A DNA stretch of 35,256 nucleotides, taken from a virus. Made by a program: the position numbers and the translations under genes. Location of the stretch: UHGV virus genome UHGV-1783823; one strand, given 5' to 3'. The first letter of the stretch is position 1; each line of letters begins with the position of its first letter. The notes below the pieces were generated by a model that saw nothing but the letters and a program-made list of their open reading frames with translations, was not told the DNA's origin and ran no database searches. Positions 18-25,723 of this stretch are shown here, in pieces.

Positions 18-6616
<6,599 letters not shown>

Positions 6617-6618
6617 TA

Positions 6619-7806: not shown

Positions 7807-7815
7807 TTTCTTTAC

Positions 7816-7836
7816 AGGGGCTTTATAGCCCCTTTT
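7816..7836 (+). terminator. Rho-independent terminator-like hairpin between the two fibre genes
   Basis: AGGGGCT-TTAT-AGCCCCT stem-loop followed by a T-run; downstream RBS AAGAGG and ATG at 7853. Confidence 0.6.
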
Positions 7837-7852
7837 AAGAGGAAAATTTATA

Positions 7853-11821: not shown

Positions 11822-11822
11822 A

Positions 11823-12625: not shown

Positions 12626-13141
12626 CTATTTAACCTCAAAAACTGGTTCAAGAACCAATATAAAGTCCACACAGTCATCTTCTTCATCCAGAATACCATC
12701 AAAGTTCTTAGGTACAAAGTCGAAGAGGCTCATAGAATATCGGTCAGAAGTAACCCTGATAGTGTTCCCTATATTCTCTACAGTTAATATTGTACGGCTT
12801 TCTGTTACCTCACTTAGAAGATTACTCACAAAGTCATCTAAGAAGTGTTTCATCAGTGACTTGAAGCCTTTAGGGTAATCTGTACCAGAGTATGTTTCAA
12901 TCTGAGGAACAAGCTTAACATTTATACTAGTCTTTGTTAAGAACGTTTTAGAGAACATGCTATCAGGTAGCTTACAAACAGTCTTTCCAGTACCTTCATG
13001 TTCAATCTCAACAAAACCAGCTTCGTCGCCACATGTAACTATTTTAAAAGATGCTTCATTCTCATACTGTGAAGCCATAAACTTTTTAAGCATTTCTTTA
13101 AGGAAATCTGCATGAGCATCTTGTAAGTAGATATCAATCAT
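12626..13141 (-). CDS. Hypothetical protein
   Basis: 171 aa ORF co-oriented in the early operon; no motif recognised. Confidence 0.55.
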   Translation of the reverse strand: MIDIYLQDAHADFLKEMLKKFMASQYENEASFKIVTCGDEAGFVEIEHEGTGKTVCKLPDSMFSKTFLTKTSINVKLVPQIETYSGTDYPKGFKSLMKHFLDDFVSNLLSEVTESRTILTVENIGNTIRVTSDRYSMSLFDFVPKNFDGILDEEDDCVDFILVLEPVFEVK

Positions 13142-13154
13142 AGTTAATCACCTA

Positions 13155-13514
13155 TTATGGGAACAAGCACTTAATGTCATCGTTTTTGAAAACAAAACTT
13201 GTGTAGTTGTGACCATCAACATCTAGCCAAACAGCCTGAACATCTACACCATCAAGATTCTGGTAAAGCTCTTTGATGAAGTGGTCTTTCACAATCTGGC
13301 TGCTAGTTGTTTCCAGCTTAATGTTCGAGATTGCTGAACCTACAGCCATATAACCCATGACACGTTTCTTCTCAGTATGCTTAATCTTACCATCTTTGTA
13401 AGCCATAATGAGATTGGAGAGAATCTTCACACCATAATACTTTTCAAGGTGAGTAGGTACGCCATAAAAGCCTAATGCGAAGTTTTCAGAGTGGATAATG
13501 TTTTCACGTTTCAT
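13155..13514 (-). CDS. Hypothetical protein
   Basis: 119 aa ORF co-oriented in the early operon; no motif recognised. Confidence 0.55.
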   Translation of the reverse strand: MKRENIIHSENFALGFYGVPTHLEKYYGVKILSNLIMAYKDGKIKHTEKKRVMGYMAVGSAISNIKLETTSSQIVKDHFIKELYQNLDGVDVQAVWLDVDGHNYTSFVFKNDDIKCLFP

Positions 13515-13515
13515 A

Positions 13516-13845
13516 TTAATCTGCCAACCTTAAATTGAAATTAACACCAAATTTTTCACATACTTCCAACATATACTCAAGGGAGACGTTACCAGTGAGA
13601 TGGATTATGTTGGATACACGAGCCTGAGAGATACCACAAATTTTAGCAACTTGCTCTTGAGAAAGACCTCTGGATTTAATCTCTCTCTTAAAACGATGTG
13701 CAACGAAATCCCTCATCTCGTCTACATCCATTGGACAAATATAACTCTCCATTTCAGCCTCTCTATCAGCCTCCCAATCATCTTGTGGAGCATAAGGGTC
13801 AAAAACCTCATTCATCTTTCTTCTTCCGTTTACGTGAAGTATCAA
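13516..13845 (-). CDS. Helix-turn-helix DNA-binding protein (XRE-like HTH at C-terminus)
   Basis: LSQEQVAKICGISQARVSNIIHL matches HTH_3-type helix-turn-helix pattern; true start may be the internal Met (MNEVFDPY). Confidence 0.6.
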   Translation of the reverse strand: MILHVNGRRKMNEVFDPYAPQDDWEADREAEMESYICPMDVDEMRDFVAHRFKREIKSRGLSQEQVAKICGISQARVSNIIHLTGNVSLEYMLEVCEKFGVNFNLRLAD

Positions 13846-14020
13846 TTAATGAGTCTATGTTTGTAGCTCTGACCTTTTCACGTTCATCATTAAGATAATC
13901 GTCAAGAGCCTTTTCAATCTGTGAATCATCCTGACAGATGACTGTAAAGACTGTAAAGCCGTCTGTATCGTCAATTATCTTACCATAACCGCTTCTGGGA
14001 TGTAACTTTTTAAGAGCCAT
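13808..14020 (-). CDS. Hypothetical small protein with basic C-terminus
   Basis: 70 aa ORF; overlaps upstream gene by ~38 nt; C-terminal RKRKKKDE. Confidence 0.4.
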   Translation of the reverse strand: MALKKLHPRSGYGKIIDDTDGFTVFTVICQDDSQIEKALDDYLNDEREKVRATNIDSLIDTSRKRKKKDE

Positions 14021-14021
14021 A

Positions 14022-14405
14022 TCAAATACCTGTGCAGCTTCTGTTTTCTAAGAAATACTCAACACCATACATAGCTTTTTGCATCAAATCTTCTTTAAAC
14101 TGGATACGATGATTGAGCATAGCCTGTACATCAATATCATCAGGGTGCTTCTCTTTAATATTTGCAGATTGCAGGAAATACTCTGCAAGAACACGATACT
14201 GATAGTCAGTTACCTTATCAGTCATCTCTGTTAAAGACTCTTCAGAGATTGGTTTAAGTAGTTCACCTTTAGATAGGGCAACACCTTTAACAATCTGGCA
14301 AGTGTCTTCTGGAACACCTGATAAGTCCACATTTGGAAGTTCTGTTGCATTGACTGGTAAATTCATTGCCATAACCATTGCAGCAGCTAATAAAATCTTT
14401 TTCAT
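14022..14405 (-). CDS. Secreted/periplasmic protein with N-terminal signal peptide
   Basis: MKKILLAAAMVMAMNLPVNATE has the n-h-c architecture of a Sec signal peptide with an AxA-like cleavage region. Confidence 0.6.
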   Translation of the reverse strand: MKKILLAAAMVMAMNLPVNATELPNVDLSGVPEDTCQIVKGVALSKGELLKPISEESLTEMTDKVTDYQYRVLAEYFLQSANIKEKHPDDIDVQAMLNHRIQFKEDLMQKAMYGVEYFLENRSCTGI

Positions 14406-14450
14406 AATGACCTCAAAGTTATATTAAATTTTGTATTACATTGAGTATAA

Positions 14451-14497
14451 AAATAAGCTATAACACCTGACTTGTCAACAGATTTTATAGCTTATTT
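14451..14497. promoter_or_regulatory. 13-bp perfect inverted repeat with 21-bp spacer containing a TTGACA hexamer (- strand)
   Basis: AAATAAGCTATAA (14451-14463) and its reverse complement TTATAGCTTATTT (14485-14497); spacer includes TGTCAA at 14473-14478. Confidence 0.5.
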
Positions 14498-14532
14498 GGC
14501 AGATTTTTTATAAGGCTACTGCCATCCTTCCA

Positions 14533-14582
14533 TACCTTACCTAACCAAACCGAACCTCACACAACCAGACCGAGCCGCACCC
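14533..14582. repeat. Pentanucleotide tandem array A, ~10 units, consensus NACCN; G-poor on + strand
   Basis: tacct tacct aacca aaccg aacct cacac aacca gaccg agccg caccc; ACC recurs with exact 5-bp period. Confidence 0.7.
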
Positions 14583-14588
14583 CGCCTT

Positions 14589-14612
14589 ATTAAAAGACCC
14601 TCTTCAAAGACC
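14589..14612. promoter_or_regulatory. Conserved box copy 1 (TTAAAAGACCCTCTTCAAAGACC) following array A
   Basis: ~20 of 24 positions identical to the box at 14749-14771; followed by a 7-bp stem hairpin (AGTCTCA 14626-14632 / TGAGACT 14645-14651). Confidence 0.5.
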
Positions 14613-14664
14613 TTTTAAAAAGGTAAGTCTCATTTTAATGTAGCTGAGACTAACTACCCATACT

Positions 14665-14748
14665 GTACCGCACCTGACCCGACCTGACCAGACCTAACAT
14701 TACCGTGCCACACCGTACCGAACAGAACACTGCCATACCTCACATCAC
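14665..14748. repeat. Pentanucleotide tandem array B, ~16 units, consensus NNACC; - strand reads GGTCT GGTCA GGTCG GGTCA GGTGC GGTAC
   Basis: gtacc gcacc tgacc cgacc tgacc agacc taaca ttacc gtgcc acacc gtacc gaaca gaaca ctgcc atacc tcaca; strict 5-bp register over ~80 bp. Confidence 0.7.
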
Positions 14749-14781
14749 TTAAAAACCCTCTTAGAAGACTCTTAAGTGATG
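14743..14781. promoter_or_regulatory. Conserved box copy 2 (TTAAAAACCCTCTTAGAAGACTC, 14749-14771) embedded in a 10-bp perfect inverted repeat
   Basis: CATCACTTAA (14743-14752) and TTAAGTGATG (14772-14781) are exact reverse complements; the 19-nt loop carries the box core. Confidence 0.5.
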
Positions 14782-14996
14782 CTGGTGAGTACCCGTTGGT
14801 TTATGCTGCTCAGTATACTCACCAAATTTTCTATGTCAACAACTTTTTATATAAAAGTCCTGATAGCTATATGTGTTACAAAACAGAAGATTGTGAACAA
14901 AACACCCATTGCAAAAGATGTGTCCAAAAGCTTACTTGCAATGTATGACAATACAAAGACAACCAGTATAAACAGAATGACTGTACTGAACATAGT

Positions 14997-16100
14997 TTAC
15001 TCATAATCCCTAATAACTAGCCCTACAGGAAACTGTAAAGAACCCTTACGAGTCATCTTCTGGAACTGAACAGTTAAAGGTTTCCCGATAAACTCTTCAG
15101 GATGTTCAGCAAGATACTGTTTCTTCTCATGTGTAGTTTTCCATGAAACATCTACAAAGACGTTAGGAAGAGTCTCTACAACGAACTTACCATGACCACG
15201 CTTATCGGTCTTTACACCAGTCACTTTAAACTCTTCAGTGTGCATCTTCTTGTGCTTAATCAAGAAGTATGAACGGTGACAACACTCATAGAAGGAGTCT
15301 TCAGAGATTGAACGGTACATTGCACCTTCAAACTTAGCTTCAACCCACTTATCATGAGCTTCATCGAACTCTTCCCAAGAGTTAACACGACGAGACTTAA
15401 CAGGAACAACTTTACAGCCATCTCTAAAGTCATTCAATGGTGAAGTCTCAATAATATCTCTACGCTCAGGCCACGTCTTAGTACTATCACAGATATCATA
15501 CCAGTAGAACTTAAGTAAGTGTCTGTCAGGATTGTCTTCATTTTTAATCATGGAGACAATATCTTCTAAGTCCCACCCATGAGCATAAATCTCTCCATCA
15601 AATTCATCAACATCTTTGTGGAGCCTTAACATTGCCATAATGTCGGGTATTAGTTCAGTAGGGATTTTATAAACAGTATTCTCACGAGAGTATGCTGTGA
15701 ATACACTACCAATGCTTAAGTGTCTTGAAATTCTACAACGGACACCATCAAGTTTTGGTTGAGCATCAGCAGGGAACTTCAAATACTTTGCATGGCTAAC
15801 CTTTGCAGCATCATGAGCAAGCTGTACACCCACCTTCTCAGTATTCTGTGCAGACTCTTTTGTGTAAGCATAACCTTTACGGTCAACTTGCTTTTTATAC
15901 TTAGCAGCAACTTCAAAGAGAGCTTGCTGTTCAGCGTCACGCTCATTCTTTTTACCGATGTTTTTAGGTTCTGCTGTATACTCTTCAAACATCATCTTGC
16001 CATTTTCTTTACCATAGGTTGTAATAACTTTGTCACCTACAGCAACACATGACCAGACGTTGAAGGAACCGTCTTTATTTTGTTTGTACAGAATTGTCAT
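14997..16100 (-). CDS. ATP-dependent DNA ligase
   Basis: Nucleotidyltransferase motif I KLDGVRC (KxDGxR, Arg favours ATP-dependent type), DEFDGEIYAHG (motif III-like), EGAMYRS and FLIKHKK (motifs IV/V-like); start set at internal ATG 16100 preceded by RBS AGAGG rather than ORF-track start 16136. Confidence 0.8.
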   Translation of the reverse strand: MTILYKQNKDGSFNVWSCVAVGDKVITTYGKENGKMMFEEYTAEPKNIGKKNERDAEQQALFEVAAKYKKQVDRKGYAYTKESAQNTEKVGVQLAHDAAKVSHAKYLKFPADAQPKLDGVRCRISRHLSIGSVFTAYSRENTVYKIPTELIPDIMAMLRLHKDVDEFDGEIYAHGWDLEDIVSMIKNEDNPDRHLLKFYWYDICDSTKTWPERRDIIETSPLNDFRDGCKVVPVKSRRVNSWEEFDEAHDKWVEAKFEGAMYRSISEDSFYECCHRSYFLIKHKKMHTEEFKVTGVKTDKRGHGKFVVETLPNVFVDVSWKTTHEKKQYLAEHPEEFIGKPLTVQFQKMTRKGSLQFPVGLVIRDYE

Positions 16101-16293
16101 TTTTAACCTCTGAGTGATACCAAGTATTGCAAGCATTACATGCGTAAAGCTCTAAGTCATTTTTATCTGGTTTATGGAAACAGTTTGACCCACAACGACA
16201 CCGGAATAGCTTACCATCAACACGAAGAATGAACGTTTCAAGCTTACCATCTTCTGTAAGAACTGCGTTCTTAAATTTATCTTCTACAGTCAT
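16075..16293 (-). CDS. Zinc-ribbon protein
   Basis: CRCGSNC ... CNACN cysteine clusters; 72 aa. Confidence 0.5.
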   Translation of the reverse strand: MTVEDKFKNAVLTEDGKLETFILRVDGKLFRCRCGSNCFHKPDKNDLELYACNACNTWYHSEVKNDNSVQTK

Positions 16294-16595
16294 TTTCTCT
16301 TACCACCAATTTCTACGTCGATAACTTGAACATCGCCAGCAACATCAAACTTATGAATGATGCTTTCCACAGTGTAAGTCCAACCCTCAATGCGAACCAA
16401 TTCACCTTCTCGTGGTACGATTGGGTTACGTTGAGCTACCGTTGTAGTGGAGTGAACAACGTCATAACGATAGATATAGTTTACTAGGACTTCCATCGTG
16501 AAAACCTCACTCAATAACCGTAGTATGTGATTGACCATTTTTGCCGTAGCTATAAGATGTTGTTGTTTGAGAGTTTGGACATCTGACAACAACAA
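16290..16595 (-). CDS. Hypothetical protein (start uncertain; possibly internal Met at 16496)
   Basis: ORF overlaps the upstream lipoprotein gene by ~89 nt unless an internal start is used. Confidence 0.4.
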   Translation of the reverse strand: MLLSDVQTLKQQHLIATAKMVNHILRLLSEVFTMEVLVNYIYRYDVVHSTTTVAQRNPIVPREGELVRIEGWTYTVESIIHKFDVAGDVQVIDVEIGGKRK

Positions 16596-16767
16596 TATCC
16601 CTACTTATAGCATCACCATGTAACTTGTATACTCTGCAATCTTGCATCTCTGGTGGGAGACTGTAAGAAGCATTTTTATCTTCATAAGAAGGGTTGCAGC
16701 CAGATAGAAAAATAACACCAAGTGCAATTACTGCTTTCCACATAATACTCACCCTATTACTGTTCAC
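16507..16767 (-). CDS. Putative lipoprotein (signal peptide with lipobox LSGC)
   Basis: MWKAVIALGVIFLSGCNPSY: hydrophobic h-region followed by L-S-G-C lipobox; three further Cys in the mature part. Confidence 0.55.
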   Translation of the reverse strand: MNSNRVSIMWKAVIALGVIFLSGCNPSYEDKNASYSLPPEMQDCRVYKLHGDAISRDIVVVRCPNSQTTTSYSYGKNGQSHTTVIE

Positions 16768-16912
16768 GATGTTCTACTTCTCTGTATGTGCGTCGGTAGT
16801 TTATGATAAGAGGTGCTAATTCATTGCTTTTAACATTTGAACGTAACAGTTGCCAGTCAAAACCTTTAGCGACTCTTCCATATAAATTAAATAACTTTAC
16901 TTTGCGTTTCAT
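16757..16912 (-). CDS. Small basic protein (51 aa), not in supplied ORF track (below length cutoff)
   Basis: ATG at 16912 preceded by GGAGA RBS; translation MKRKVKLFNLYGRVAKGFDWQLLRSNVKSNELAPLIINYRRTYREVEHREQ; fills the gap between flanking - strand genes. Confidence 0.4.
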   Translation of the reverse strand: MKRKVKLFNLYGRVAKGFDWQLLRSNVKSNELAPLIINYRRTYREVEHREQ

Positions 16913-16930
16913 TTTTGGTATCTCCAATAC

Positions 16931-17143
16931 TCAGATGTCAATATTAATACGCTCACCCTTAAGGACTCCTGTACGGTCTCTTGCAATCTTACCGTCAACA
17001 ATAAGAATGTGTGCAGACCTTAAAGAATCATGATTAAAACCTTTTACGAACTTACTAGGCATCACTACAATAAGCATCTCCTGAATTAACTCTGGAGTGT
17101 AGCAATTGTCATGAAGTTGCTGAATAACGTCTGCAAGTGTCAT
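16931..17143 (-). CDS. Hypothetical protein
   Basis: 70 aa ORF co-oriented downstream of DNA polymerase. Confidence 0.45.
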   Translation of the reverse strand: MTLADVIQQLHDNCYTPELIQEMLIVVMPSKFVKGFNHDSLRSAHILIVDGKIARDRTGVLKGERINIDI

Positions 17144-17204
17144 ATAACCTCCTATACAAGATACAGTATAAGGTACTCTTCCATGAGCACCTTGTCAACA
17201 CTAA

Positions 17205-19904
17205 TTAGTGAACCTCAAGCCAGCTTTTACCAACCTTACCAGTACCTGTAACAAGCGTTTCTTTCTTAAGACCTAAGTTCTTAGAAGCTTGTCCATAATA
17301 CCAGTCAGTAACTGCTTTCACTTCTGCCGTCATACTTTCTGGACATTCCCAACTTGTTTCATCGTGATATGCACAGAGTAAACGAGCACCAATAGCTGGT
17401 TGACGACCATTTAACTTCATTAAGCCTTCGTCAATCATACGACGGCAAGCAAGGTTAATTGCCTCATTTTGAATCTGAGCCTCTGAACCCATGAGCAAAT
17501 AATTCAACAGCTTATGCGGAGATTTACACCACAACCAAGCTCCAGCAACCTTTACAAAACCCCCTTTAGAGATTGCAGCAGTCTTACCAAACACCTCTTC
17601 AAGTGCCTTTTTAGTTGCTTTGTAGTCAGCTTCCAAGTCATCTAACAGCTTCTTAATTTTAGGCAAACGTATAAAGTAAGTCTGTTTAGTCAGCGCACCT
17701 TCCTGAGTAGTCGCAGCTTTAATCGTCTTAGCAAACTTCTCATCACCTGCACCGAACAGCAGTGCATAGATACCATTCTTAGCTTTCTTACGACCTTTGC
17801 TAATCTCATGAAGAAGATTCTCATCCTGAGTAGCTCGACAAGTCAAGATGTCCTGCTCATCATTCAAGCTAAAGTAAATACTGTTCAGTGTATGTGCATC
17901 AGTCCCTGAATAGACAACGTACAGGTCATTCTCAGAGTCATAGCGAAGGTACTTATCAATCTCTGGGTTGAGGTACTCATCAAAATGTTTGCAGTAATAG
18001 CGTCCATCTTCTTGACGAATGAACTCAATTTCTTCTTTACCTTGCGTTACCGCTTTGGTGAAGTCTTTATCACCCATAAAGTTACAAAGTAGAACTAGCT
18101 GGGCTGAGTTCATATCTACAGAGACAACGTTAGTACCTTCCTCACAAATCCACACTGCCCTCATTGGTTCCCCATAGACAGCAGCACCAGACGGTACGTT
18201 TACAATACCATATTGTGTCATACGTCCAGTTGAAGTACCAAACACCATTGCACCAGCACTAAGGCGACCATCAGGACGAATCTGGTTCAACCAACCTTTT
18301 TCATCATCCTTTGAGTTCTCAATAGTTCTGCGTCGGTGCATCAAAGTATAGTACTTAGCAATCTTCTGTCCAAGCTCACCTTCAATCGTATCATAAGATG
18401 ATTCAGTAAGTTTTGGTGAAGTACGGATTAAGCAAGGCTCAAGCAAATCTGTGTACTTCTTCACAGACCAGTTATGCTCAATGTACTGTACACCTTCATG
18501 TTCAACATAGCTCAAACCACACCGCTCAACCATTTCCTGCCACTTAGGATGTTTTGTAATCATCTTTTTATTGTCTTTGAAACGACAAACTTTGACAGGG
18601 CGACCGTCTGAGTCTTTCTTGTAGTTCCAGTCATCTGGAATCCAACCAACTGATTTCAAGTAGTCTTTTACAACTGCTACCTGAGTCATACGAGAAACTT
18701 CAAACTCAATTGGTGTATATGGTGCATCAATCAATCCTGTGTAGCGACTTGACTCAAGTTCAAAGTGGTTAACAACGTGGCTGTTATAGTACTTCACAGT
18801 TTTGACTGTTTTTACTGGCTTCCAGTCTTTGCATTTCTTACCAATCTTTGCATTCAACTCATTGCAAATTGCACGAGCATCCTTCATTGCTACAAAGCCT
18901 TCCTTGTACTCTTCACCAGTTACAGAGTTGGTTGGTGTATAGCAATTTCTCTTTTCAATGTTAAAAATCTTTGTAGTTGGCTTACCAAATGGTTTGATTT
19001 CATAAGTCTGCATCTCACCATTACGCACCTGCTGACGATACTTCGTCTTAGGGTACTTGGTAATTCTTTTCAGTCCATCTGCATGACCAAATGCTTCAAC
19101 ATACTCATTCCAAGCTTTTGCAAACTCTTCTCCAGTGACTTTACCTTTGGTCTTAATAGTTGGAGGTAGATGTGGTTCAACCTCTGAAGCAAGCTCATTA
19201 GTCAACTTGTCAAGTTCCTTTACATGGAACTCCATAAGCTCTTTATCAGCTTTCCAACCATTGATAGCTTGTTGACTCATCCAGAAAGATGTTTCTTTAG
19301 CTCGCATATAGGTTTCATAAGTGTCTATACCACACTTCTTAAGCTTCAGGTATTCATTATCCAGTGCACGTTTAGTTTTGGCGTTAATACGGATATCTTC
19401 TACAACACGAGTGAAGATTTCTGCATTCCACACACCCCAATGTTCAATCTCTGGTTTACGGACACCAACACGAGCACCCCATGCAGCCAAGCCATGAGCA
19501 CCTTTATAGCCTTTTGGAGTTGGTCTATCCATCCACTGAACACGAGACTGGATAAGAGAATCCTGAAAGAAATTACTCCACGGTTTACACTTTGGATTAT
19601 CAAAGTTCCACAAATCAGGTGCAATGTGATTGAAAACCCACCAGTCATATCCTAGACCATTGTGGATGCAAAGTCGTTTTGCCTTTAACGCAAACTCAAT
19701 ACCTTCACGTAAGCCGCCCTTAATGTACTTGGTATACTTGTGACCGAGGATAGGCTCATCTGTAAAGACCCATACAGGTGGCTCTTCATCGTCAGATTTA
19801 TAGTCTGCGAAAGCCATTACGTGCACTTTAGTGAACTCAAGGAGTAAACCATCAGTTTCTGTATCACCAACTAAATGTAAGTTTTTAAAATCTACGTTTT
19901 CCAT
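17205..19904 (-). CDS. DNA polymerase, family A (Pol I/T7-like) with 3-prime-5-prime exonuclease domain
   Basis: Exo I motif DTETDGL; motif A VDMNSAQL; motif B RKKAKNGIYALLFGAG; motif C AYHDE; start set at ATG 19904 preceded by RBS GAGGGAG (ORF-track start 19934 has no RBS). Confidence 0.9.
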   Translation of the reverse strand: MENVDFKNLHLVGDTETDGLLLEFTKVHVMAFADYKSDDEEPPVWVFTDEPILGHKYTKYIKGGLREGIEFALKAKRLCIHNGLGYDWWVFNHIAPDLWNFDNPKCKPWSNFFQDSLIQSRVQWMDRPTPKGYKGAHGLAAWGARVGVRKPEIEHWGVWNAEIFTRVVEDIRINAKTKRALDNEYLKLKKCGIDTYETYMRAKETSFWMSQQAINGWKADKELMEFHVKELDKLTNELASEVEPHLPPTIKTKGKVTGEEFAKAWNEYVEAFGHADGLKRITKYPKTKYRQQVRNGEMQTYEIKPFGKPTTKIFNIEKRNCYTPTNSVTGEEYKEGFVAMKDARAICNELNAKIGKKCKDWKPVKTVKTVKYYNSHVVNHFELESSRYTGLIDAPYTPIEFEVSRMTQVAVVKDYLKSVGWIPDDWNYKKDSDGRPVKVCRFKDNKKMITKHPKWQEMVERCGLSYVEHEGVQYIEHNWSVKKYTDLLEPCLIRTSPKLTESSYDTIEGELGQKIAKYYTLMHRRRTIENSKDDEKGWLNQIRPDGRLSAGAMVFGTSTGRMTQYGIVNVPSGAAVYGEPMRAVWICEEGTNVVSVDMNSAQLVLLCNFMGDKDFTKAVTQGKEEIEFIRQEDGRYYCKHFDEYLNPEIDKYLRYDSENDLYVVYSGTDAHTLNSIYFSLNDEQDILTCRATQDENLLHEISKGRKKAKNGIYALLFGAGDEKFAKTIKAATTQEGALTKQTYFIRLPKIKKLLDDLEADYKATKKALEEVFGKTAAISKGGFVKVAGAWLWCKSPHKLLNYLLMGSEAQIQNEAINLACRRMIDEGLMKLNGRQPAIGARLLCAYHDETSWECPESMTAEVKAVTDWYYGQASKNLGLKKETLVTGTGKVGKSWLEVH

Positions 19905-19934
19905 TTTTACTCCCTCTAAAATCATTAACCTCAT

Positions 19935-20161
19935 ACATTACTGCAAAAAATTATAAAAAGCAAGTTGACAATGTACTTGACAAGGTGTTAATCTTTGCGA
20001 AGTGGGTTTTTACTTAAAAGGTTACTTAACAGTTTAACTATACAGATACTTTAAAACTCTTAAAAGATTATTTAATAGCTTTTAAAAAGCTTTAAAGTAT
20101 AACGTATAGAATACGTTAAGATAAAAGATTAAAACTTAATAGTTACTTAAAAGAGGCTTAC
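19935..20161. promoter_or_regulatory. Divergent AT-rich control region between polymerase (-) and rightward operon (+)
   Basis: - strand TATAAT (+ coords 19950-19955); two + strand TTGACA hexamers (19965-19970, 19977-19982); near-palindrome AGCTTTTAAAAAGCT (20077-20091); perfect 8-bp inverted repeat TAACGTAT-AGA-ATACGTTA (20100-20118) overlapping a TAGAAT -10-like hexamer; repeated TTACTTAAAAG. Confidence 0.5.
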
Positions 20162-20584
20162 ATGCAGAAAATGTTTGTTCACCCAGACATAGCTGACTTT
20201 GTTAGAGCTTTGCAGAAGTTGGAAGAACTTGACATTGCTGCTCAACGGGAATATGCTCACCATCACAGGAGAATGATTGATATACAACATGAAATAGAGT
20301 TGTCTGAAAACTATGAAGATGATTTAAAATGCTCTGTATTTGAGCATATGAAAGATGTTGCTACAGCGAGACGTAAAGCTAAAGACACAGTTGCTTTACT
20401 AGATTCTCTTAAAAAGAGATTGCAAAGTGGTACAGGCCTGTGTAATCTAGCGTCACTGATTAATGATGTTGAAACTTCTTGGGATAGACATTACTATCCA
20501 CGTTCTGAAAAGACACTTGACTTTTCTTCATCCGAAAACTTAAAATGTTCTAGAAAGAAACTTAACCAACTGAGAGAGAAATAA
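20162..20584 (+). CDS. Hypothetical protein
   Basis: 140 aa; RBS AAAGAGG upstream; first gene of rightward operon. Confidence 0.55.
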   Translation: MQKMFVHPDIADFVRALQKLEELDIAAQREYAHHHRRMIDIQHEIELSENYEDDLKCSVFEHMKDVATARRKAKDTVALLDSLKKRLQSGTGLCNLASLINDVETSWDRHYYPRSEKTLDFSSSENLKCSRKKLNQLREK

Positions 20585-20585
20585 T

Positions 20586-21398
20586 ATGAATATCGATGTA
20601 GAAAAGATGCTTGAAGAGAAAGGTGTTGATGAAGCATTCTTAATCAATGCCGTAGAAAGCATGGCTATGATTCTTCGTGGTAACAACTACACAGAACAGT
20701 TTATGCCTGCAAGCTATAACTTGCCTAAAGACAAGTCTGATAACGGTGCTTTTGCAGAACAGGTTAATATGATGCTGTGTGACAAAACACTTGCTTTAGC
20801 ATCTATTGTTGTAGGTGTTGATGCTCTTGCAGAGTTCATTTTTTATGAGATGCAGAAAAATGACTATATTGCCATGACCTCTGAAGAAAAAGACTCGCTA
20901 CTGCTCTTAGATAATAATGAGCTAGTTGACCTGTTAATTTCGTCAACGAGTGCTGTTATGGCTGCTCTTGAGAAGCGAATGGAAGAGAAGCTGTCACGAT
21001 ATGAAAAGCTTGATTGGGGTGTAGAGGAATTAAACCCACGAATCAAAGAGATTATCCAGCAAACAAAAGATTCTTTAGAAGAAGCTGTGAAAGATGATTC
21101 TGTAGCTGATGTAGAACCACTTCAGGTGAAAGTTGCATTGATGATTCCAGCCATCTCTACGATGATGAATATAGTTGCACTAATACAGCTTTCACAGATG
21201 ATGGGCACAAGCATTGAGTTCATTGAGAGTATGACTGGTGGTGTGAGTATGCAAGCAATCAATGATGTTCTGGTGAGCATTGGTGCTTCAATCATTGAAG
21301 AGAAGCTGCGCATTAACTTTGGTGATGATTTTGTGAAGCAAATCTCAGCTATGGCTGAAAAAGAGTATTCACAGACTAATACTGACCAACTGCACTAA
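20586..21398 (+). CDS. Hypothetical protein
   Basis: 270 aa ORF 2 nt downstream of previous gene; no motif recognised. Confidence 0.55.
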   Translation: MNIDVEKMLEEKGVDEAFLINAVESMAMILRGNNYTEQFMPASYNLPKDKSDNGAFAEQVNMMLCDKTLALASIVVGVDALAEFIFYEMQKNDYIAMTSEEKDSLLLLDNNELVDLLISSTSAVMAALEKRMEEKLSRYEKLDWGVEELNPRIKEIIQQTKDSLEEAVKDDSVADVEPLQVKVALMIPAISTMMNIVALIQLSQMMGTSIEFIESMTGGVSMQAINDVLVSIGASIIEEKLRINFGDDFVKQISAMAEKEYSQTNTDQLH

Positions 21399-21416
21399 GT
21401 CTTTATAAAAACTTAC

Positions 21417-21441
21417 AAGCCTCCTTAGTTGGGGGCTTTTT
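21417..21441 (+). terminator. Rho-independent terminator-like hairpin
   Basis: AAGCCTCC / GGGGGCTT stem (one G-U pair) with 6-nt loop and T-run. Confidence 0.55.
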
Positions 21442-21460
21442 AGTAATTAAGGGAGATAGA

Positions 21461-22204
21461 ATGAGTAATATTATCGCATTTACTGGAAAGGCACGTTCTG
21501 GAAAAGACACCTCATGTTCTATTGTTAAGAATATTCTAGAAGATGAGTATGGCTACAATGTTGCAGTAATGGCCTATGCAGACAACCTTAAACTCTCTGC
21601 ATCAAGGATATTTGACTTGACTTGGAATGACCTGTACGGTGAAACTAAAGAGACTCCACAGGTTTTTGATTTATCATACTCTGAACTGATGTTCAAGGTC
21701 ACAGAAGCTATGGAGTTTACCTTCAGAGGTGAACGTTATCATACGGACTTCAAACTCATGTCAGAGTTAACCGGACGATTAATTATGGAACTGAAGAAGG
21801 TTGCTAAACCGACTCTATTAACACGTCTGGGATTTAGTAAAAAGTATAAATTTTCATCAAGACAGATTCAACAGATTTGGGGCACTGAAGTTATCCGTAA
21901 AGTTATGGGTGACAAATTCTGGGCTAAAGACCTCGAAAAACGAATGGCAAATTTCTTTGACGTTTGCTCACTTAAGAATCAAGATGGTGTTGTTTTAATC
22001 AGTGACTTAAGGTTTGACTCTGAAGCTGAGTGGTTGAGCAGATTTGCACACCAAATTATTGAAGTAAAAAGAGACAATGTGGATAAGGTTTCGTCACATG
22101 TTTCAGAAAATGGGATTTCTACCAAATATGCGCGTGACATTATTCATAATAATGGTACTCTTGCAGACCTTGAAAGCAAGCTAAGAGCTATCCTGAAAAT
22201 TTAA
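21461..22204 (+). CDS. Deoxynucleoside monophosphate kinase (T4 gp1-like)
   Basis: P-loop FTGKARSGKDT at N-terminus; alignable by eye to my recollection of the T4 gp1 family (N-terminal P-loop, internal QQIWGTEVIRK block, C-terminal NNGTLADLESKL). Confidence 0.7.
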   Translation: MSNIIAFTGKARSGKDTSCSIVKNILEDEYGYNVAVMAYADNLKLSASRIFDLTWNDLYGETKETPQVFDLSYSELMFKVTEAMEFTFRGERYHTDFKLMSELTGRLIMELKKVAKPTLLTRLGFSKKYKFSSRQIQQIWGTEVIRKVMGDKFWAKDLEKRMANFFDVCSLKNQDGVVLISDLRFDSEAEWLSRFAHQIIEVKRDNVDKVSSHVSENGISTKYARDIIHNNGTLADLESKLRAILKI

Positions 22205-22212
22205 AAGAGAGA

Positions 22213-22413
22213 ATGAAGATGAGAGTAAAAGATAATTTTAAAGTTATTGACCATCGTTTAGTGGAACTCTCATCTCTTTCCAATGAGGTAATGATTGAAC
22301 GTCTTAAAAGAGTTGAATCACGAAGGAAAGAGATTGCAGATGAGATTCATGAACTTGACAAGATTGAAAATGGATTGAAGGCAGAACTACAACGAAGAGG
22401 TGCTAATGTCTAA
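22213..22413 (+). CDS. Hypothetical coiled-coil protein
   Basis: 66 aa, charged heptad-like sequence; overlaps primase-helicase start. Confidence 0.45.
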   Translation: MKMRVKDNFKVIDHRLVELSSLSNEVMIERLKRVESRRKEIADEIHELDKIENGLKAELQRRGANV

Positions 22414-24391
22414 AGGTCGTAAATTGAAAGAGGCTGGTCAGTTTGTTGGTCATTGCGCATGTCCACGTTGTGGTTCATCAGATGCTGGTTCAATCTACCA
22501 CCATGACGATGATTCATATTCGATGACTTGCTTTAGTTGTAATAAAGGTTTTCCAGAGTGGGATTTTGATAAAGGACAAATTGTGAGCACTTATTCTACT
22601 GGTTCAGATAATAAAAACCGTACTTTCCGTGGAATGGATTTAGACGATGTAAAAGAAAACCTTGAAGCAATGGACTTGAAAGACAGGAAGATTCCTGCAA
22701 AAGTTCTTGAGCGTCTCGGTATCAAGGTTGACATTGACAGTGACGGTGAAATTGATGCACATTTCTATCCGACTTACAAACGTAATGAAGATGGCAAACT
22801 AGAACATGTCGGCTACCGTGTTCGTCACCGTTACCCAGAAGACCATCCAAAAGAACACCTACGTGGTAAGCTAAAAGACTTCTCAGGTGGTGTTGGAGAC
22901 ATTAAAGGTGAACTGGCAATGTTCGGTTCATGGATTGCTCCAGAAGGTGGTAACCGTCTATTCATCTGGGAAGGTGAGATGGAATGTGCGACAGCAATCT
23001 ATATGACTTCTCTTGCGATTAAGGACAAGTCTCGTCGTAAGAATTACTGTCACGTATCTGTTCCATCGGGTGCAAACATTAAGTCTATCAAAGACAACTA
23101 TCAGTACATCACATCATTTGATGAGATTTACTTGTGCTTTGATAACGATGAAGCAGGTGCTAAAGCTACCAAAGAGGCTGCTGGTATTCTACCTATTGAG
23201 AAGGTTCGTTTATTCCAGTATCCAGAGGGTGTAAAAGACCTTAATGAATGGTGGACAAAGTTCTATAAAGAGAAAGATACAGTTCTGGAAGGATTTAAGC
23301 AGCGTATCTACAATGCACCTCGTTACTGTCCTGCTGGTATCAAGAACTTTGCAGATGGTTTTGAGGCAATGAAGAATCGTGGTCAGATTCCATTGATTCC
23401 TTTCCCAGAATCTTTCGGGGATTTGAACAGACTGACTTACGGTGGTTATGGTTTGGGTGAGATTACAACTATTGCAGCACCATCTTCAGTAGGTAAGTCA
23501 GCTTACACTCGTGAGATGATTTATTCAGCTTGGAAAGAAACTGATTATAATATCGGTGTAATTCCTGTAGAAGATACTTACGAAGAGCTTATGGAAATGC
23601 TCTGTGCAATCCACCTGAGCAAGCAGATTTCTGAGATTCCTTATGACGAACGTGATTGGGATGAACTAAAAGGGGCACACGCCGAGCTTTCAAAAGGTCG
23701 TCGCATCCATATCGTTGACCATCAAGGGGCAATTGACCAAGATAACCTGCTGGAGTTTGTTGACTATCTTGTTAATAGTTTAGACTGTAAGATTATCATT
23801 CTTGACCCTATTACGTTGGCTCTGTCACGTTCTGATACGGATGAAGAGGAAGTCTTGTCTGAACTACTGCGTCGTTGCAAACGCTACCAGTATGCACAGG
23901 TGAACGTCTGTCACGTTCGTAAGAGTGCAGGTGGTCAGAAAGCTAACTCTGAAGGTGGAGATATCTCTGAAGAGGACATTAAAGGTTCTGGTGCGTATTT
24001 CCAGATTTCCATGAACAACATTCTGTTAATGCGTAACAAGGTTGACCCAGACCCTGTTAAGAAAAACTTGACAAAAATCAAGTTAACTAAGTGTCGTCGT
24101 CATGGTAAGTCAACAGGTATTGCTGGTCATACTTGGTACAATCCAGACACAGGACGTCTTATCAAAGCTTCTGGATGTGGTGTTGACATTGATGGTGCAG
24201 CAGAAAATATTCGTCAACAGTTTGGTATTGGTGAAGCTGAAGACCATTATGATGACTCTCTACCTCATTATGAAGATGAAGTGTTTGACCGTGAGACTGG
24301 TGAAGTCTATACTGAAGAACAGCTTCAAAGCTCAACGATTCCACCTGTATTAAGTGAGGATGCAGATGACTGCCCGTTTGAAACTGAGTGA
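22406..24391 (+). CDS. DNA primase-helicase (T7 gp4-like: zinc-ribbon, TOPRIM, DnaB-family helicase)
   Basis: Zn-ribbon CPRCGSSD...CFSCNKG; TOPRIM-like acidic motifs EGEMECA and FDNDEAG; Walker A APSSVGKSAYT; start at ATG 22406 with RBS GAAGAGG. Confidence 0.9.
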   Translation: MSKGRKLKEAGQFVGHCACPRCGSSDAGSIYHHDDDSYSMTCFSCNKGFPEWDFDKGQIVSTYSTGSDNKNRTFRGMDLDDVKENLEAMDLKDRKIPAKVLERLGIKVDIDSDGEIDAHFYPTYKRNEDGKLEHVGYRVRHRYPEDHPKEHLRGKLKDFSGGVGDIKGELAMFGSWIAPEGGNRLFIWEGEMECATAIYMTSLAIKDKSRRKNYCHVSVPSGANIKSIKDNYQYITSFDEIYLCFDNDEAGAKATKEAAGILPIEKVRLFQYPEGVKDLNEWWTKFYKEKDTVLEGFKQRIYNAPRYCPAGIKNFADGFEAMKNRGQIPLIPFPESFGDLNRLTYGGYGLGEITTIAAPSSVGKSAYTREMIYSAWKETDYNIGVIPVEDTYEELMEMLCAIHLSKQISEIPYDERDWDELKGAHAELSKGRRIHIVDHQGAIDQDNLLEFVDYLVNSLDCKIIILDPITLALSRSDTDEEEVLSELLRRCKRYQYAQVNVCHVRKSAGGQKANSEGGDISEEDIKGSGAYFQISMNNILLMRNKVDPDPVKKNLTKIKLTKCRRHGKSTGIAGHTWYNPDTGRLIKASGCGVDIDGAAENIRQQFGIGEAEDHYDDSLPHYEDEVFDRETGEVYTEEQLQSSTIPPVLSEDADDCPFETE

Positions 24392-24647
24392 TAGTTATAA
24401 AAGAGAGGGGTTCATACCCTTCTTTGAAGAAAAAAGTTTAAATGAATTTCAGGAAGAGTGTTTGACAAAGGTTGATAGGTTCTATAGAATGCTCTACATG
24501 AAATGTGATGGAGGCGTTGAGGCAGAAGAAAAGTTCCATCACAGCATAATCACAGTCACCATTACTATACCTAAACATAATATTGGTTGGCTCTTTATAA
24601 TTAAAGAAAATGTGTTTGAATATCAAGTATATCGGAGAATATCATGA
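24354..24647 (+). CDS. Hypothetical protein
   Basis: 97 aa ORF overlapping primase-helicase end; its stop overlaps the next small ORF start (ATGA). Confidence 0.4.
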   Translation: MRMQMTARLKLSDSYKREGFIPFFEEKSLNEFQEECLTKVDRFYRMLYMKCDGGVEAEEKFHHSIITVTITIPKHNIGWLFIIKENVFEYQVYRRIS

Positions 24648-24793
24648 AACACTCTAAAGCATTTGAAAAAGTTTTTGGGGATTCCTTAAAAGCCACTGCT
24701 GGTAAACCAGCAAAATACTATGAAGAGAAGCGTGTAAGAACTGGAAAAACTGCACGTAAAGCAGCTTCTAAAGATAAGCACAACTTCCAGTAA
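24644..24793 (+). CDS. Small basic protein (49 aa), not in supplied ORF track
   Basis: ATG at 24644 preceded by GGAGA RBS; translation MKHSKAFEKVFGDSLKATAGKPAKYYEEKRVRTGKTARKAASKDKHNFQ. Confidence 0.4.
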   Translation: MKHSKAFEKVFGDSLKATAGKPAKYYEEKRVRTGKTARKAASKDKHNFQ

Positions 24794-24800
24794 TTAATGT

Positions 24801-24829
24801 TTGACAATAGAGTATCAACAAATTAGAAT
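24801..24829 (+). promoter_or_regulatory. Sigma70-like promoter (TTGACA-17 bp-TAGAAT) upstream of SSB candidate
   Basis: Consensus -35 TTGACA at 24801-24806, 17-bp spacer, -10 TAGAAT at 24824-24829; RBS AGAGG before ATG 24866. Confidence 0.6.
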
Positions 24830-24865: not shown

Positions 24866-25723
24866 ATGTCTAAAGTTGTTAAAATGAAAGCTCCGGTAGA
24901 GAAGTACAACGGTACTGAACGTCAAACTCTGCGTTACCTTCTGAAAGATGTCTGGTTTTATTACCTGAACACTTCACCACGTCCGGGAAAAGGCAAGTCC
25001 ATTGATAAGAAATTCCCAGGCAAAGACTGTAACTACAGCGTTTCAATTCTGGCAGAAGATGGTAACAAGCTGTTTAAAGAGTTTACTAAGTCTAAGAAAA
25101 ACCCAGAAGGTTGGGATAAAGTTACCACTGAAGCAGTTGATGCAGATGACTTCGAAGAGAAGTTTGGTTGCAAACCACCATTTGAAGCAGACACTTACTA
25201 CATCTTGAAAGTAAGTCGTGCAGCAGCTTATAAAGATGGTGCTGTATGGACAGCTAAACAGTCATTCCCTGTAATGCTGATTGAAGAAGTAAATGGTAAG
25301 CGTGTAGCTGTTAAGCAGCCGATGAAGAAAATCAAAGCTCAAGCATCTGATAAGCATGAAGATGATAAGAACTATGATGTAATTCATCCAGATATCGCAG
25401 TTGGTAACGGTTCTTTTGGTAGTGTGATTCTTTCTACTCACTTCTACACTTTTGAGAACAATGTTCTGACAAAACCTATTCAGGAACAGTTTATCATTGA
25501 TACCCTTGTACCTTACACTGGTGGTAACGGTGCTAACGGTGAACCTGAGCTAGATGAAGATGAACTGGCTATGCTTGGTCTTGATGGTGTCGAAGATAAC
25601 GGTGAAATCACTGAAGAAGACGCAACAGACCATAAATCTTCGAATGATTCTGATGATGGTGACGATGAAGACTTGCCAGACCCAGATGACGAAGAAGATG
25701 AAGACTTCGATACAGAAGACTAA
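24866..25723 (+). CDS. Putative single-stranded DNA-binding protein with acidic C-terminal tail
   Basis: Own strong promoter and terminator; extremely acidic C-terminus (DDGDDEDLPDPDDEEDEDFDTED) as in phage SSBs; lies between primase-helicase and flap endonuclease; no motif-level proof. Confidence 0.5.
   Translation: MSKVVKMKAPVEKYNGTERQTLRYLLKDVWFYYLNTSPRPGKGKSIDKKFPGKDCNYSVSILAEDGNKLFKEFTKSKKNPEGWDKVTTEAVDADDFEEKFGCKPPFEADTYYILKVSRAAAYKDGAVWTAKQSFPVMLIEEVNGKRVAVKQPMKKIKAQASDKHEDDKNYDVIHPDIAVGNGSFGSVILSTHFYTFENNVLTKPIQEQFIIDTLVPYTGGNGANGEPELDEDELAMLGLDGVEDNGEITEEDATDHKSSNDSDDGDDEDLPDPDDEEDEDFDTED

What the first reader, a model, noticed from the sequence alone, without database searches (positions are those of the whole stretch)
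20162..21398. Two unknown genes at the head of the rightward operon, directly downstream of the operator-like region
The 140-aa and 270-aa proteins are the first genes transcribed rightward from the divergent control region and are followed by a terminator, so they form their own small transcription unit. This position is typical of immediate-early host-takeover genes. No motifs recognised.
Basis: inference. Interest (0 to 1): 0.4.

Follow-up and report, generated by a model that had tools for sequence, protein, structure and literature searches.

The report
Two conserved unknown Felix-O1 phage genes
These are the orthologues of Felix O1 genes 97 and 98: two real, co-translated, non-structural genes of unknown function at the head of the phage's DNA-replication operon. 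The widespread database name "minor tail protein" for the second one has no support.

Summary
ORFs 20162-20584 (140 aa) and 20586-21398 (270 aa) are the first rightward genes after a 227-bp divergent intergenic region. A conserved intrinsic terminator follows them at 21417-21441.

The window is a Felixounavirus, about 97.5% identical to VpaE1/ULIM8. The genes are Felix O1 ORF97/ORF98 (Bas63 gp048/gp049; phrog_4039 and phrog_4251). Both are under purifying selection (dN/dS 0.05-0.17).

- **p140** is a core gene of all Ounavirinae. It is predicted as a helical hairpin with invariant D-H-E / RR-KD / R-Y-R residues.
- **p270** is an acidic all-alpha protein found only in Felixounavirus, Suspvirus and Mooglevirus. 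Non-homologous genes occupy its place in Erwinia and Pectobacterium phages.

Neither protein matches Pfam, NCBIfam, PADLOC, PDB or predicted viral structures beyond its own family. p270 is labelled "minor tail protein" in more than 100 records. It is absent from the Felix O1 virion proteome and from the Bas63 cryo-EM models, lies in the replication module, and is transcribed with the replication genes.

"Early" is plausible; "host takeover" is unsupported. My best reading is a co-translated pair that acts in regulating phage transcription or replication. The plan of promoter, repeat-rich leader, two genes, terminator, then replication genes is conserved across the subfamily. The biochemical function remains unknown.

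The parts
19935..20161 (.). Divergent intergenic region between the DNA polymerase gene (-) and p140 (+). Highly conserved non-coding DNA (context, not part of the two genes).
   Evidence: 100% identical to Bas63, 96% to Felix O1, 72-76% to SUSP1 and Mordin. The leader part 19990-20164 has 89% mean column identity over 12 phages of 3 genera.
19965..19994 (+). Candidate sigma-70 promoter for the rightward unit: TTGACA (19965-19970), 18-nt spacer, extended -10 TGtTAATCT (19986-19994). A second TTGACA lies at 19977-19982.
   Evidence: Read directly from the sequence. Both TTGACA hexamers and TGnTA(A/G)TCT are invariant across genera. It was not found by the stricter consensus scan and has not been verified experimentally.
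20013..20153 (+). Cluster of five CTTAANAG repeats plus two palindromes in the presumed 5' leader of p140. The palindromes are AGCTTTTAAAAAGCT and ACGTATAGAATACGT (20104-20118).
   Evidence: 5 of the window's 24 CTTAANAG matches fall within 141 bp, all on the + strand. The hairpin/palindrome at 20103-20119 has two compensatory pair changes. The same plan occurs in Erwinia and Pectobacterium relatives.
20162..20584 (+). p140: orthologue of Felix O1 ORF97 (Felix01p180), wV8 gene 104 and Bas63 gp048; phrog_4039. Predicted helical hairpin protein and a core gene of Ounavirinae.
20586..21398 (+). p270: orthologue of Felix O1 ORF98 (Felix01p181), wV8 gene 105 and Bas63 gp049; phrog_4251. Acidic all-alpha protein, named 'minor tail protein' in many records without evidence.
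21417..21441 (+). Intrinsic terminator or attenuator: 8-bp stem AAGCCTCC/GGGGGCTT, 6-nt loop, T-run.
   Evidence: Annotated in wV8 and Mordin. Equivalent hairpins occur in Erwinia and Pectobacterium phages.

Best explanation
The two ORFs are non-structural genes that head the DNA-replication and nucleotide-metabolism operon of a Felix O1-like myophage. Their start and stop codons nearly abut, so they are probably co-translated.

Host RNA polymerase starts at a conserved TTGACA-type promoter in the divergent intergenic region. It transcribes a roughly 160-nt repeat-rich leader, then p140 and p270, and then meets a conserved intrinsic terminator. Only transcripts that read through it reach dNMP kinase, primase-helicase, the exonuclease and ribonucleotide reductase.

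p140 is a conserved helical-hairpin protein with invariant charged residues. p270 is a fast-evolving acidic all-alpha protein restricted to one lineage. I infer that they work together, p140 as the conserved core and p270 as the variable partner. I also infer that they act as a regulator of phage nucleic-acid transactions at the early-to-middle transition. The most likely target is transcription: polymerase behaviour at the numerous internal terminators, or promoter choice. The alternative target is initiation of replication at the adjacent conserved AT-rich repeat region.

**Shown:** the genes, their conservation, synteny, terminator, non-virion status, and the lack of any known domain.

**Inferred:** the complex, the regulatory role and the target.
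For: - **Identity and reality of the genes:**
- **Fixed synteny.** The order DNA polymerase(-) | intergenic region | p140 | second gene(s) | terminator | dNMP kinase | small ORF | primase-helicase is kept in Felixounavirus, Suspvirus, Mooglevirus, Kolesnikvirus and Pectobacterium phage Arno162.
- **Coupled expression.** Near-abutting or overlapping stop and start codons occur in four lineages: the window, SUSP1, Mordin and the Erwinia phage. In Arno162 the two genes are 17 nt apart.
- **Timing.** In Felix O1 RT-PCR the genes peak with the replication genes, not with the late genes (PMC3185647).
- **Not in the virion.** Absent from the Felix O1 virion MS list. Named 'hypothetical' by the VpaE1 authors, who did virion MS. 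No PDB chain matches p140 or p270 even at E <= 10, whereas the window's baseplate gene hits Bas63 entry 9NDY at E = 0.
- **Terminator** conserved in sequence across three genera and in position across the subfamily. No promoter-like site lies between it and the end of the primase-helicase gene.
- **Leader region.** Conserved far above the flanking coding DNA and repeat-rich in every lineage.
- **p140 superfamily.** It shares invariant D40, H43, E46, R70, R71, K74, D75, R109, Y111 and R114. Two distant members sit among DNA/RNA-metabolism genes. One is directly followed by an ECF-type sigma factor gene.
Against: - No sequence or fold match to any transcription or replication factor.
- Both AlphaFold models have limited confidence: p140 pLDDT 61; p270 pLDDT 68 with poorly predicted ends.
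- A p140-p270 complex was not tested.
- The link to a sigma factor rests on a single, very remote relative (hhalign probability only about 11% against the narrow family profile).
- The RT-PCR data are end-point gel data. They do not resolve an order of expression within the operon.
- The window already encodes a classical HTH regulator (13516-13845). That is the more obvious candidate to bind the palindromes.
- The per-gene essentiality of Bas63 g48 and g49 was measured by others but could not be read here.
Confidence: 0.45

Rival explanations
1. Immediate-early host-takeover proteins. The pair is made first from a host-type promoter and shuts down or redirects a host function such as host transcription, replication or nucleoid structure.
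For: - Promoter-proximal position behind TTGACA elements, with a terminator that could limit the first transcripts to these two genes.
- p270 is acidic (pI 4.3) and evolves faster than its neighbours (dN/dS 0.15-0.17; 37-41% identity between genera).
- p270 occurs only in phages of Escherichia, Salmonella, Shigella and Citrobacter. Unrelated proteins occupy its place in Erwinia and Pectobacterium phages. That pattern is expected for a host-contacting protein.
Against: - p140 is a core gene of the whole subfamily, about 98% identical within the genus with dN/dS 0.05. It is fixed inside the replication module, unlike typical small accessory takeover genes.
- Felix O1 RT-PCR puts both genes in the 25-min class with the replication genes, not in the 5-min class.
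- There is no similarity to any known host-shutoff protein and no toxicity data.
Confidence: 0.2
2. Counter-defence. One or both proteins neutralise a bacterial anti-phage system, for example p270 acting as an acidic decoy or DNA mimic.
For: Early or middle expression. p270 has an acidic, rapidly diverging sequence and a host-group-restricted distribution. Felixounaviruses carry several validated counter-defence genes elsewhere (PMC11482910).
Against: - The main text of the PhageMaP preprint, which screened Bas63 against 33 defence systems, does not mention g48 or g49 at all, either as a counter or as a trigger.
- p270 is present in all 259 matching genomes and always in the same slot. That is unusual for anti-defence cargo.
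- p270 is much larger than known DNA mimics and has a hydrophobic helical core.
- There are no PADLOC or fold matches.
Confidence: 0.1
3. p140 is a small all-alpha enzyme of nucleotide or nucleic-acid metabolism. Its invariant Asp, His and Glu plus Arg, Arg, Lys and Asp residues would form a metal or phosphate site. It would serve the neighbouring dNMP kinase and replisome genes.
For: Ten invariant polar residues across a superfamily with otherwise about 25% column identity. The gene lies next to dNMP kinase here, and next to thymidylate synthase, RNA ligase or polynucleotide kinase in distant relatives.
Against: - No match to MazG/HisE-type or any other enzyme family.
- In the predicted hairpin the invariant groups lie far apart along the helices rather than clustered. 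This is my inference from the helix boundaries.
- The operon already has a MazG-like protein.
Confidence: 0.08
4. p270 is a minor tail (virion) protein, as named in RefSeq Felix O1, wV8 and more than 100 derived records and in PHROG 4251.
For: - The name itself.
- The Bas63 cryo-EM study leaves one helical density at the tip of the puncture apparatus unidentified, and p270 is all-helical (PMC12609058).
Against: - The original Felix O1 paper gives ORF98 no function or homologue, and it is not in that paper's virion MS list.
- The VpaE1 authors, who ran virion MS, call it hypothetical.
- None of the deposited Bas63 virion chains matches it.
- It lies about 10 kb from the tail genes, inside the replication operon and on a different transcription unit.
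- It peaks with the replication genes rather than the late genes.
- It has no fold or sequence similarity to any tail protein.
- The Bas63 authors attribute the unknown density to a baseplate-module gene. They also note that other Felixounavirus proteins were wrongly annotated as tail components.
Confidence: 0.03

Closest known systems
Felix O1 ORF97/ORF98 (Felix01p180/p181; NP_944959/NP_944960), wV8 genes 104/105, Bas63 gp048/gp049, VpaE1 ORF96/ORF97
   Same: Direct orthologues: 97-99% (p140) and 86-92% (p270) amino-acid identity to Felix O1, wV8 and Bas63, with the same position, neighbours and terminator.
   Different: Nothing of substance. In this window p270 is 270 aa rather than 266 aa. 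No function has been shown for any of them.
Lambda N / tL1 arrangement (first gene of an early operon, followed by a terminator that gates the delayed-early genes)
   Same: The layout only: a host-type promoter, a structured conserved leader, one small cassette, an intrinsic terminator, then replication genes with no promoter of their own.
   Different: p140 and p270 have no similarity to N, no arginine-rich motif and no recognisable boxA/boxB. Antitermination has not been tested. This is an analogy of architecture, not membership.
Two-subunit phage transcription factors (T4 gp33+gp55; SPO1 gp33+gp34). From my own knowledge.
   Same: A small helical protein is encoded next to a larger acidic helical protein. 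The phage has no RNA polymerase of its own, and its temporal control is unexplained (PMC3185647; PMC4690856). One remote p140 relative is followed by a sigma factor gene.
PHROG families phrog_2717 and phrog_32601 (unknown function)
   Same: They share the p140 core motif D-x-x-H-x-[IV]-E-L ... R-R-x-x-K-D ... R-x-Y-x-P-R.
   Different: Only 23-36% identical. Some carry N-terminal extensions of 80-160 residues. They occur in unrelated large phages and have no fixed neighbour.

Membership tests
PHROG 4039 (p140) and PHROG 4251 (p270): Ounavirinae orthologue groups | Full-length, significant match to the family profile | tested here: met
   3.1e-82 over 1-140/140 and 1.1e-142 over 2-266/266. Orthologues at the same locus in Felix O1, wV8 and Bas63.
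Phage minor tail protein (database name of p270) | Physically present in purified virions | tested here: not met
   Not among the Felix O1 virion MS proteins. No PDB chain of the Bas63 virion models matches p270 at E <= 10, while a baseplate protein of this window matches 9NDY at E = 0. VpaE1 ORF97 is listed as hypothetical. One density in Bas63 remains unidentified.
Phage minor tail protein (database name of p270) | Encoded in the tail morphogenesis module and expressed late | tested here: not met
   The gene lies between DNA polymerase and dNMP kinase, about 10 kb from the tail-fibre genes and on another transcription unit. RT-PCR maximum at 25 min with the replication genes, not in the 60-min class.
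Phage minor tail protein (database name of p270) | Sequence or fold similarity to a characterised tail protein | tested here: not met
Immediate-early host-takeover genes | Transcribed by unmodified host polymerase in the first minutes, before the replication genes | tested here: inconclusive
   A conserved TTGACA / extended -10 candidate promoter lies directly upstream. Felix O1 end-point RT-PCR places ORF97 and ORF98 in the same 25-min class as ORF96, 99 and 101. No RNA-seq study of this genus was found.
Immediate-early host-takeover genes | Inhibits or redirects a host function (toxicity, host binding partner) | not testable with these tools
   No experimental data found for these genes.
Lambda N-type antitermination cassette | Promoter-proximal gene followed by a terminator that precedes promoter-less delayed-early genes | tested here: met
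Lambda N-type antitermination cassette | Small basic arginine-rich protein and a nut-type (boxA/boxB) RNA site | tested here: not met
   p140 has pI 7.1 and no arginine-rich N-terminus. Rfam finds nothing in 19800-21600. The leader does hold a short hairpin with two covarying pairs, but that is equally a DNA palindrome.
Sigma-70 family / phage sigma factor (tested for p270) | Regions 2 and 4 recognisable by profile or fold | tested here: not met
All-alpha NTP pyrophosphatase (MazG/HisE-like; tested for p140) | Profile match | tested here: not met
   No Pfam or NCBIfam hit. From my own knowledge, the family's characteristic acidic metal-binding motif (EExxE ... ExxD) is not seen among the invariant p140 residues D40, H43, E46, R70, R71, K74 and D75.

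The most novel reading that the evidence does not exclude
p140, with p270 as a lineage-specific partner, is the missing temporal-control factor of Felix O1-like phages. These phages encode no RNA polymerase and no recognised polymerase modifier. The protein would bind RNA polymerase and be made from the first rightward transcript. It would then let host polymerase read through the conserved terminator at 21417-21441, and through the many other internal terminators, into the replication genes. That would be a lambda-N-like gate built from an unrelated protein family. A variant of this reading has the pair bind the adjacent conserved CTTAANAG repeat region and start replication there.
Probability: 0.12. 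Interest if true: 0.7.

Novelty: already known. Interest (0 to 1): 0.3.

Why it matters
**For annotation.** The name "minor tail protein" for this family (phrog_4251, RefSeq Felix O1/wV8 and over a hundred derived records) should be dropped. It is contradicted by every line of evidence available.

**For biology.** Felix O1-like phages are used for Salmonella and E. coli typing, biocontrol and therapy. How they time their gene expression without a polymerase or sigma factor of their own is an openly stated gap (PMC3185647; PMC4690856). A cassette conserved across the subfamily (promoter, repeat-rich leader, p140, variable partner, terminator) stands in front of the replication genes. It is a concrete and cheaply testable place to look for that control. 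Bas63 is genetically tractable, and a knockout library already exists.

Tried and rejected
**Domain and sequence searches (all negative).**
- Pfam, NCBIfam, PADLOC and PDB-sequence searches with single sequences and with family profiles gave nothing.
- An exhaustive HMMER search of 1.8 billion representatives with a p140 profile found only 12 proteins, all unannotated.

**Structure.**
- AlphaFold2 gave p140 pLDDT 61 and p270 pLDDT 68, pTM 0.70.
- Foldseek against BFVD returned only own-family hits for both proteins.

**Hypotheses rejected.**
- p270 as a membrane protein. Two segments exceed the Kyte-Doolittle threshold. In homologues the same helices carry His, Glu and Asn, and they form the confident core of the model.
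- p270 as a divergent sigma factor.
- Homology between p270 and the genes in the same slot in Erwinia and Pectobacterium phages. BLASTP and hhalign both fail.
- p140 as a DksA/Gre-like secondary-channel factor. This was considered only because of the hairpin with acidic residues near the tip. It has no zinc finger, no profile match and no test was possible, so I do not claim it.

**Literature.**
- No RNA-seq study for the genus was found.
- No paper mentions these proteins beyond annotation tables.
- PhageMaP measured Bas63 gene essentiality, but g48 and g49 are not named in the text and no supplement is held.
- Two other phage essentiality papers do not include this genus.
- tblastn of the remote p140 relatives P0075 and P0078 against GenBank phages gave almost nothing.
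Full report
**What the window is.** A 4-kb stretch around the finding is 97-97.6% identical to Escherichia phages vB_EcoM_ULIM8, VpaE1_ev035 and many other Felixounavirus genomes. In total 306 phage records match. The window runs from the baseplate and tail-fibre genes (1-10240, +). It continues through a leftward block of thymidylate synthase, dihydrofolate reductase, an HTH regulator, DNA ligase and DNA polymerase (10922-19934, -). It ends in a rightward block that starts with the two ORFs of the finding and continues with dNMP kinase, a 66-aa ORF, primase-helicase, an exonuclease, a MazG-like protein and ribonucleotide reductase.

**The observation.**
- Both ORFs are exactly as described: 20162-20584 (140 aa, here p140) and 20586-21398 (270 aa, here p270), separated by one base.
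- They follow a 227-bp intergenic region that separates them from the divergently oriented DNA polymerase gene.
- After p270 comes the hairpin AAGCCTCC/TTAGTT/GGGGGCTT plus a T-run at 21417-21441. Folded within 21399-21450 it gives -15.3 kcal/mol, and one of 200 shuffles folds as well.
- This 24-nt block is invariant in nine phages of three genera, while the spacer around it has diverged. It is annotated as a terminator in wV8 and Mordin.
- The Erwinia phage vEam_PM_27 has AGCCCCTTAATTGGGGCTTTTT at the same place. Pectobacterium phage Arno162 has a different 11-bp hairpin plus T5 there.
One qualification applies. No sigma-70-like site lies between the terminator and the end of the primase-helicase gene; the next good ones are at 24183-24829. 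The replication genes downstream must therefore be reached by read-through.

**The genes are real and already catalogued.**
- p140 is Felix O1 ORF97 (Felix01p180), wV8 gene 104, Bas63 gp048 and phrog_4039 (E = 3e-82).
- p270 is Felix O1 ORF98 (Felix01p181), wV8 gene 105, Bas63 gp049 and phrog_4251 (E = 1e-142).
- Against Felix O1, wV8 and Bas63, dN/dS is 0.05-0.07 for p140 and 0.15-0.17 for p270. The values for DNA polymerase and primase-helicase are 0.003-0.08.
- p140 is found in 300 phage records: 215 at 95-99% identity, SUSP1 at 74%, Mooglevirus at about 60%, and the Erwinia and Pectobacterium phages at 44-49%. It is a core gene of Ounavirinae.
- p270 is found in 259 records. Identity is 83-99% in Felixounavirus and 37-42% in Suspvirus and Mooglevirus.
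- In Erwinia phages the slot holds two genes (204 and 284 aa). In Arno162 it holds one (273 aa). Neither BLASTP nor profile comparison relates these to p270.
- The gene order DNA polymerase | intergenic region | p140 | second gene(s) | terminator | dNMP kinase | small ORF | primase-helicase is kept throughout.

**The 'minor tail protein' label.** Many records, RefSeq Felix O1, wV8 and PHROGs give p270 this name. I found no basis for it.
- The Felix O1 genome paper lists ORF97 and ORF98 with no product and no homologue (PMC3185647, supplementary table 1). They are absent from its virion mass-spectrometry list (Table 4A).
- The VpaE1 authors did virion LC-MS/MS and identified 22 structural proteins. 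They list their ORF97 as hypothetical although its best hit carried the tail name (PMC4690856).
- The Bas63 virion has been modelled by cryo-EM, with 22 of at least 23 gene products built (PMC12609058). A baseplate protein of this window matches PDB 9NDY at E = 0. Neither p140 nor p270 matches any PDB chain, even at E <= 10 or with family profiles.
- The gene lies in the replication operon, and its transcript peaks with the replication genes.
- The Bas63 authors also note that other Felixounavirus proteins had been wrongly annotated as tail components.
- The one residual opening is a single unidentified helical density at the tip of the puncture apparatus. Those authors attribute it to a baseplate-module gene.

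**Timing.** The only expression data I could find are end-point RT-PCRs on gels from Felix O1-infected S. Typhi.
- ORF96 (polymerase), 97, 98, 99 (dNMP kinase) and 101 (primase-helicase) are all 'maximally expressed' at 25 min.
- Several morphogenesis genes (ORFs 72, 73, 76 and 77) are in the 60-min class.
- The text says the replication genes 96, 101 and 105 are already detectable at 5 min.
- So the pair is not late, but it cannot be separated from the replication genes.
- No RNA-seq study of this genus was found.

**What the proteins look like.**
- *p140.* It is predicted, at low confidence (pLDDT 61), as a long helical hairpin (residues 8-47 and 53-88) followed by two shorter helices.
- *p140 relatives.* A profile search of 1.8 billion representative proteins found only 12. 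The distant ones are 119-294 aa, and some have N-terminal extensions. They belong to phrog_2717 and phrog_32601, both of unknown function. They keep ten residues invariant: D40, H43, E46, R70, R71, K74, D75, R109, Y111 and R114.
- *p270.* It is acidic (pI 4.3) and all-alpha. It has a confidently predicted core (residues 70-210, pLDDT 70-92; pTM 0.70) and poorly predicted ends.
- *Not a membrane protein.* Its two most hydrophobic segments carry His, Glu and Asn in homologues, so it is not a membrane protein.

**Context of the distant p140 relatives.**
- In a 160-kb viral contig the relative lies among primase, RNA ligase, a nucleotidyltransferase and polynucleotide kinase genes.
- In a 204-kb contig it is two genes from thymidylate synthase.
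- In a 120-kb contig (L048) it is followed directly, TAA then ATG, by an ECF-type sigma factor with Pfam Sigma70_r2 at 4e-12.
- That single adjacency is the only hint towards transcription. The relationship is remote: hhalign probability is about 11% against the narrow family profile. The link runs through P0078, which matches the p140 profile at E = 2.9e-4 over the whole library.
- p270 itself shows no sigma signal.

**The control region.**
- The intergenic region is 100% identical to Bas63 and 72-76% identical to SUSP1 and Mordin. p270 DNA is 54-57% identical at that distance.
- The leader part has 89% mean column identity over 12 phages.
- It holds two invariant TTGACA hexamers. The first lies 18 nt upstream of TGtTAATCT (19986-19994), giving a plausible extended -10 promoter.
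- Downstream are five CTTAANAG repeats within 141 bp, all on the + strand, and two palindromes. One palindrome (20103-20119) shows two compensatory pair changes.
- Erwinia and Pectobacterium relatives have the same plan of TTGACA followed by CTTWAMAG-like repeats.
- This could be an operator set, a structured leader RNA or a T7-style origin (promoter plus AT-rich region). I could not distinguish between these.

**Interpretation.** What is firmly established:
- The pair is non-structural.
- It is co-transcribed, and probably co-translated, at the head of the replication operon.
- It is conserved, and p140 is a core gene.
- A conserved terminator stands between it and the replication genes.

From this I infer a regulatory role in phage nucleic-acid transactions, most likely transcription. 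The alternative is replication initiation at the adjacent repeats. In this picture p140 is the conserved core and p270 a lineage-specific partner (confidence 0.45).

The rivals:
- **Host takeover (0.2).** It explains p270's evolution but not p140's.
- **Counter-defence (0.1).** It fits poorly with the fixed, universal position. The main text of the Bas63 defence-screen preprint does not mention g48 or g49.
- **An enzymatic role for p140 (0.08).** It is suggested only by the invariant polar residues.
- **The tail-protein label (0.03).** It is effectively refuted.

**Novelty and interest.** The genes, their position and the terminator are already in public records, so the finding is 'already known' as a feature. 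Its function is not known. Three points have some value. The first is the correction of a widely propagated misannotation. The second is the cassette architecture, which is conserved across the subfamily. The third is a motif-defined p140 superfamily. If the cassette proves to be the temporal gate of Felix O1-like phages (my estimate 0.12), it would answer a question that both the Felix O1 and VpaE1 papers leave open.

Noticed in passing
window 19935-20161: The non-coding region between the DNA polymerase gene and p140 is conserved far above the flanking coding DNA. Its leader part (19990-20164) has 89% mean column identity across three genera. It contains two TTGACA hexamers, five same-strand CTTAANAG repeats, the palindrome AGCTTTTAAAAAGCT, and a 7-bp-arm palindrome/hairpin at 20103-20119 with two compensatory changes. 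It is a candidate operator set, leader RNA or replication origin. The cumulative GC skew turns here, though this is confounded by the change in transcription direction.
   Followed up: partly
window 21399-24391: dNMP kinase, the 66-aa ORF and the primase-helicase gene have no sigma-70-like promoter of their own behind the conserved terminator. A cluster of near-consensus promoter-like sites (TTGACA-17-TAGAAT at 24462 and 24801, among others) appears only after the primase-helicase gene. Expression of the helicase therefore seems to depend on terminator read-through.
   Followed up: partly
window 13516-13845 (-): This 109-aa HTH transcriptional regulator (phrog_1373) is the orthologue of Bas63-035. 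A 2026 preprint reports that protein as the phage trigger of the DRT7 defence system. It is the more obvious candidate to bind the palindromes in the divergent control region.
   Followed up: no
L048:5917-6870 (IMG/VR contig 3300024999_000049): A remote member of the p140 superfamily (125 aa, with the motifs TDLYHEIELT, RRQYK and FTPR) is followed directly, TAA then ATG, by an ECF-type sigma factor gene (Pfam Sigma70_r2, 4e-12). This is a single case.
   Followed up: partly
EC6 (BFVD K4HYY2 and K4I3I5) and L011:1365-2295 (Silverhawkium gp34/gp33): In phage EC6 the p270 gene is annotated as two pieces (181 aa and 87 aa). In Silverhawkium a 47-aa ORF (gp34, 144 nt), annotated as similar to the SUSP1 gp48 N-terminus, overlaps the start of the p270 homologue gp33. 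These are either sequencing frameshifts or evidence that an intact p270 is dispensable.
   Followed up: no
window 24866-25723 (+): A 285-aa protein of unknown function (phrog_3877) lies just upstream of the exonuclease gene. No single-strand DNA-binding or annealing protein is recognised anywhere in this T7-like replication module, so this ORF is a candidate for that role.
   Followed up: no
window 20162-20584 compared with Felix O1 (L003): p140 has an unusually low synonymous divergence from Felix O1 (dS 0.09, against 0.29-0.44 for the DNA polymerase, p270, dNMP kinase and primase-helicase genes). This suggests a recent recombination patch or extra nucleotide-level constraint over this gene and the adjacent intergenic region.
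   Followed up: no
Phage records GU169904.1 (Staphylococcus phage SA1), MG065664.1 and MG065668.1 (Campylobacter phages A132 and A126): Records labelled as Staphylococcus and Campylobacter phages carry Felixounavirus-type matches. SA1 has p270 at 85% identity (its p270 cluster is flagged UNVERIFIED_ORG by NCBI), A132 has p140 at 98% identity and A126 has the neighbouring dNMP kinase at 96% identity. These look like contaminated or mislabelled assemblies.
   Followed up: no
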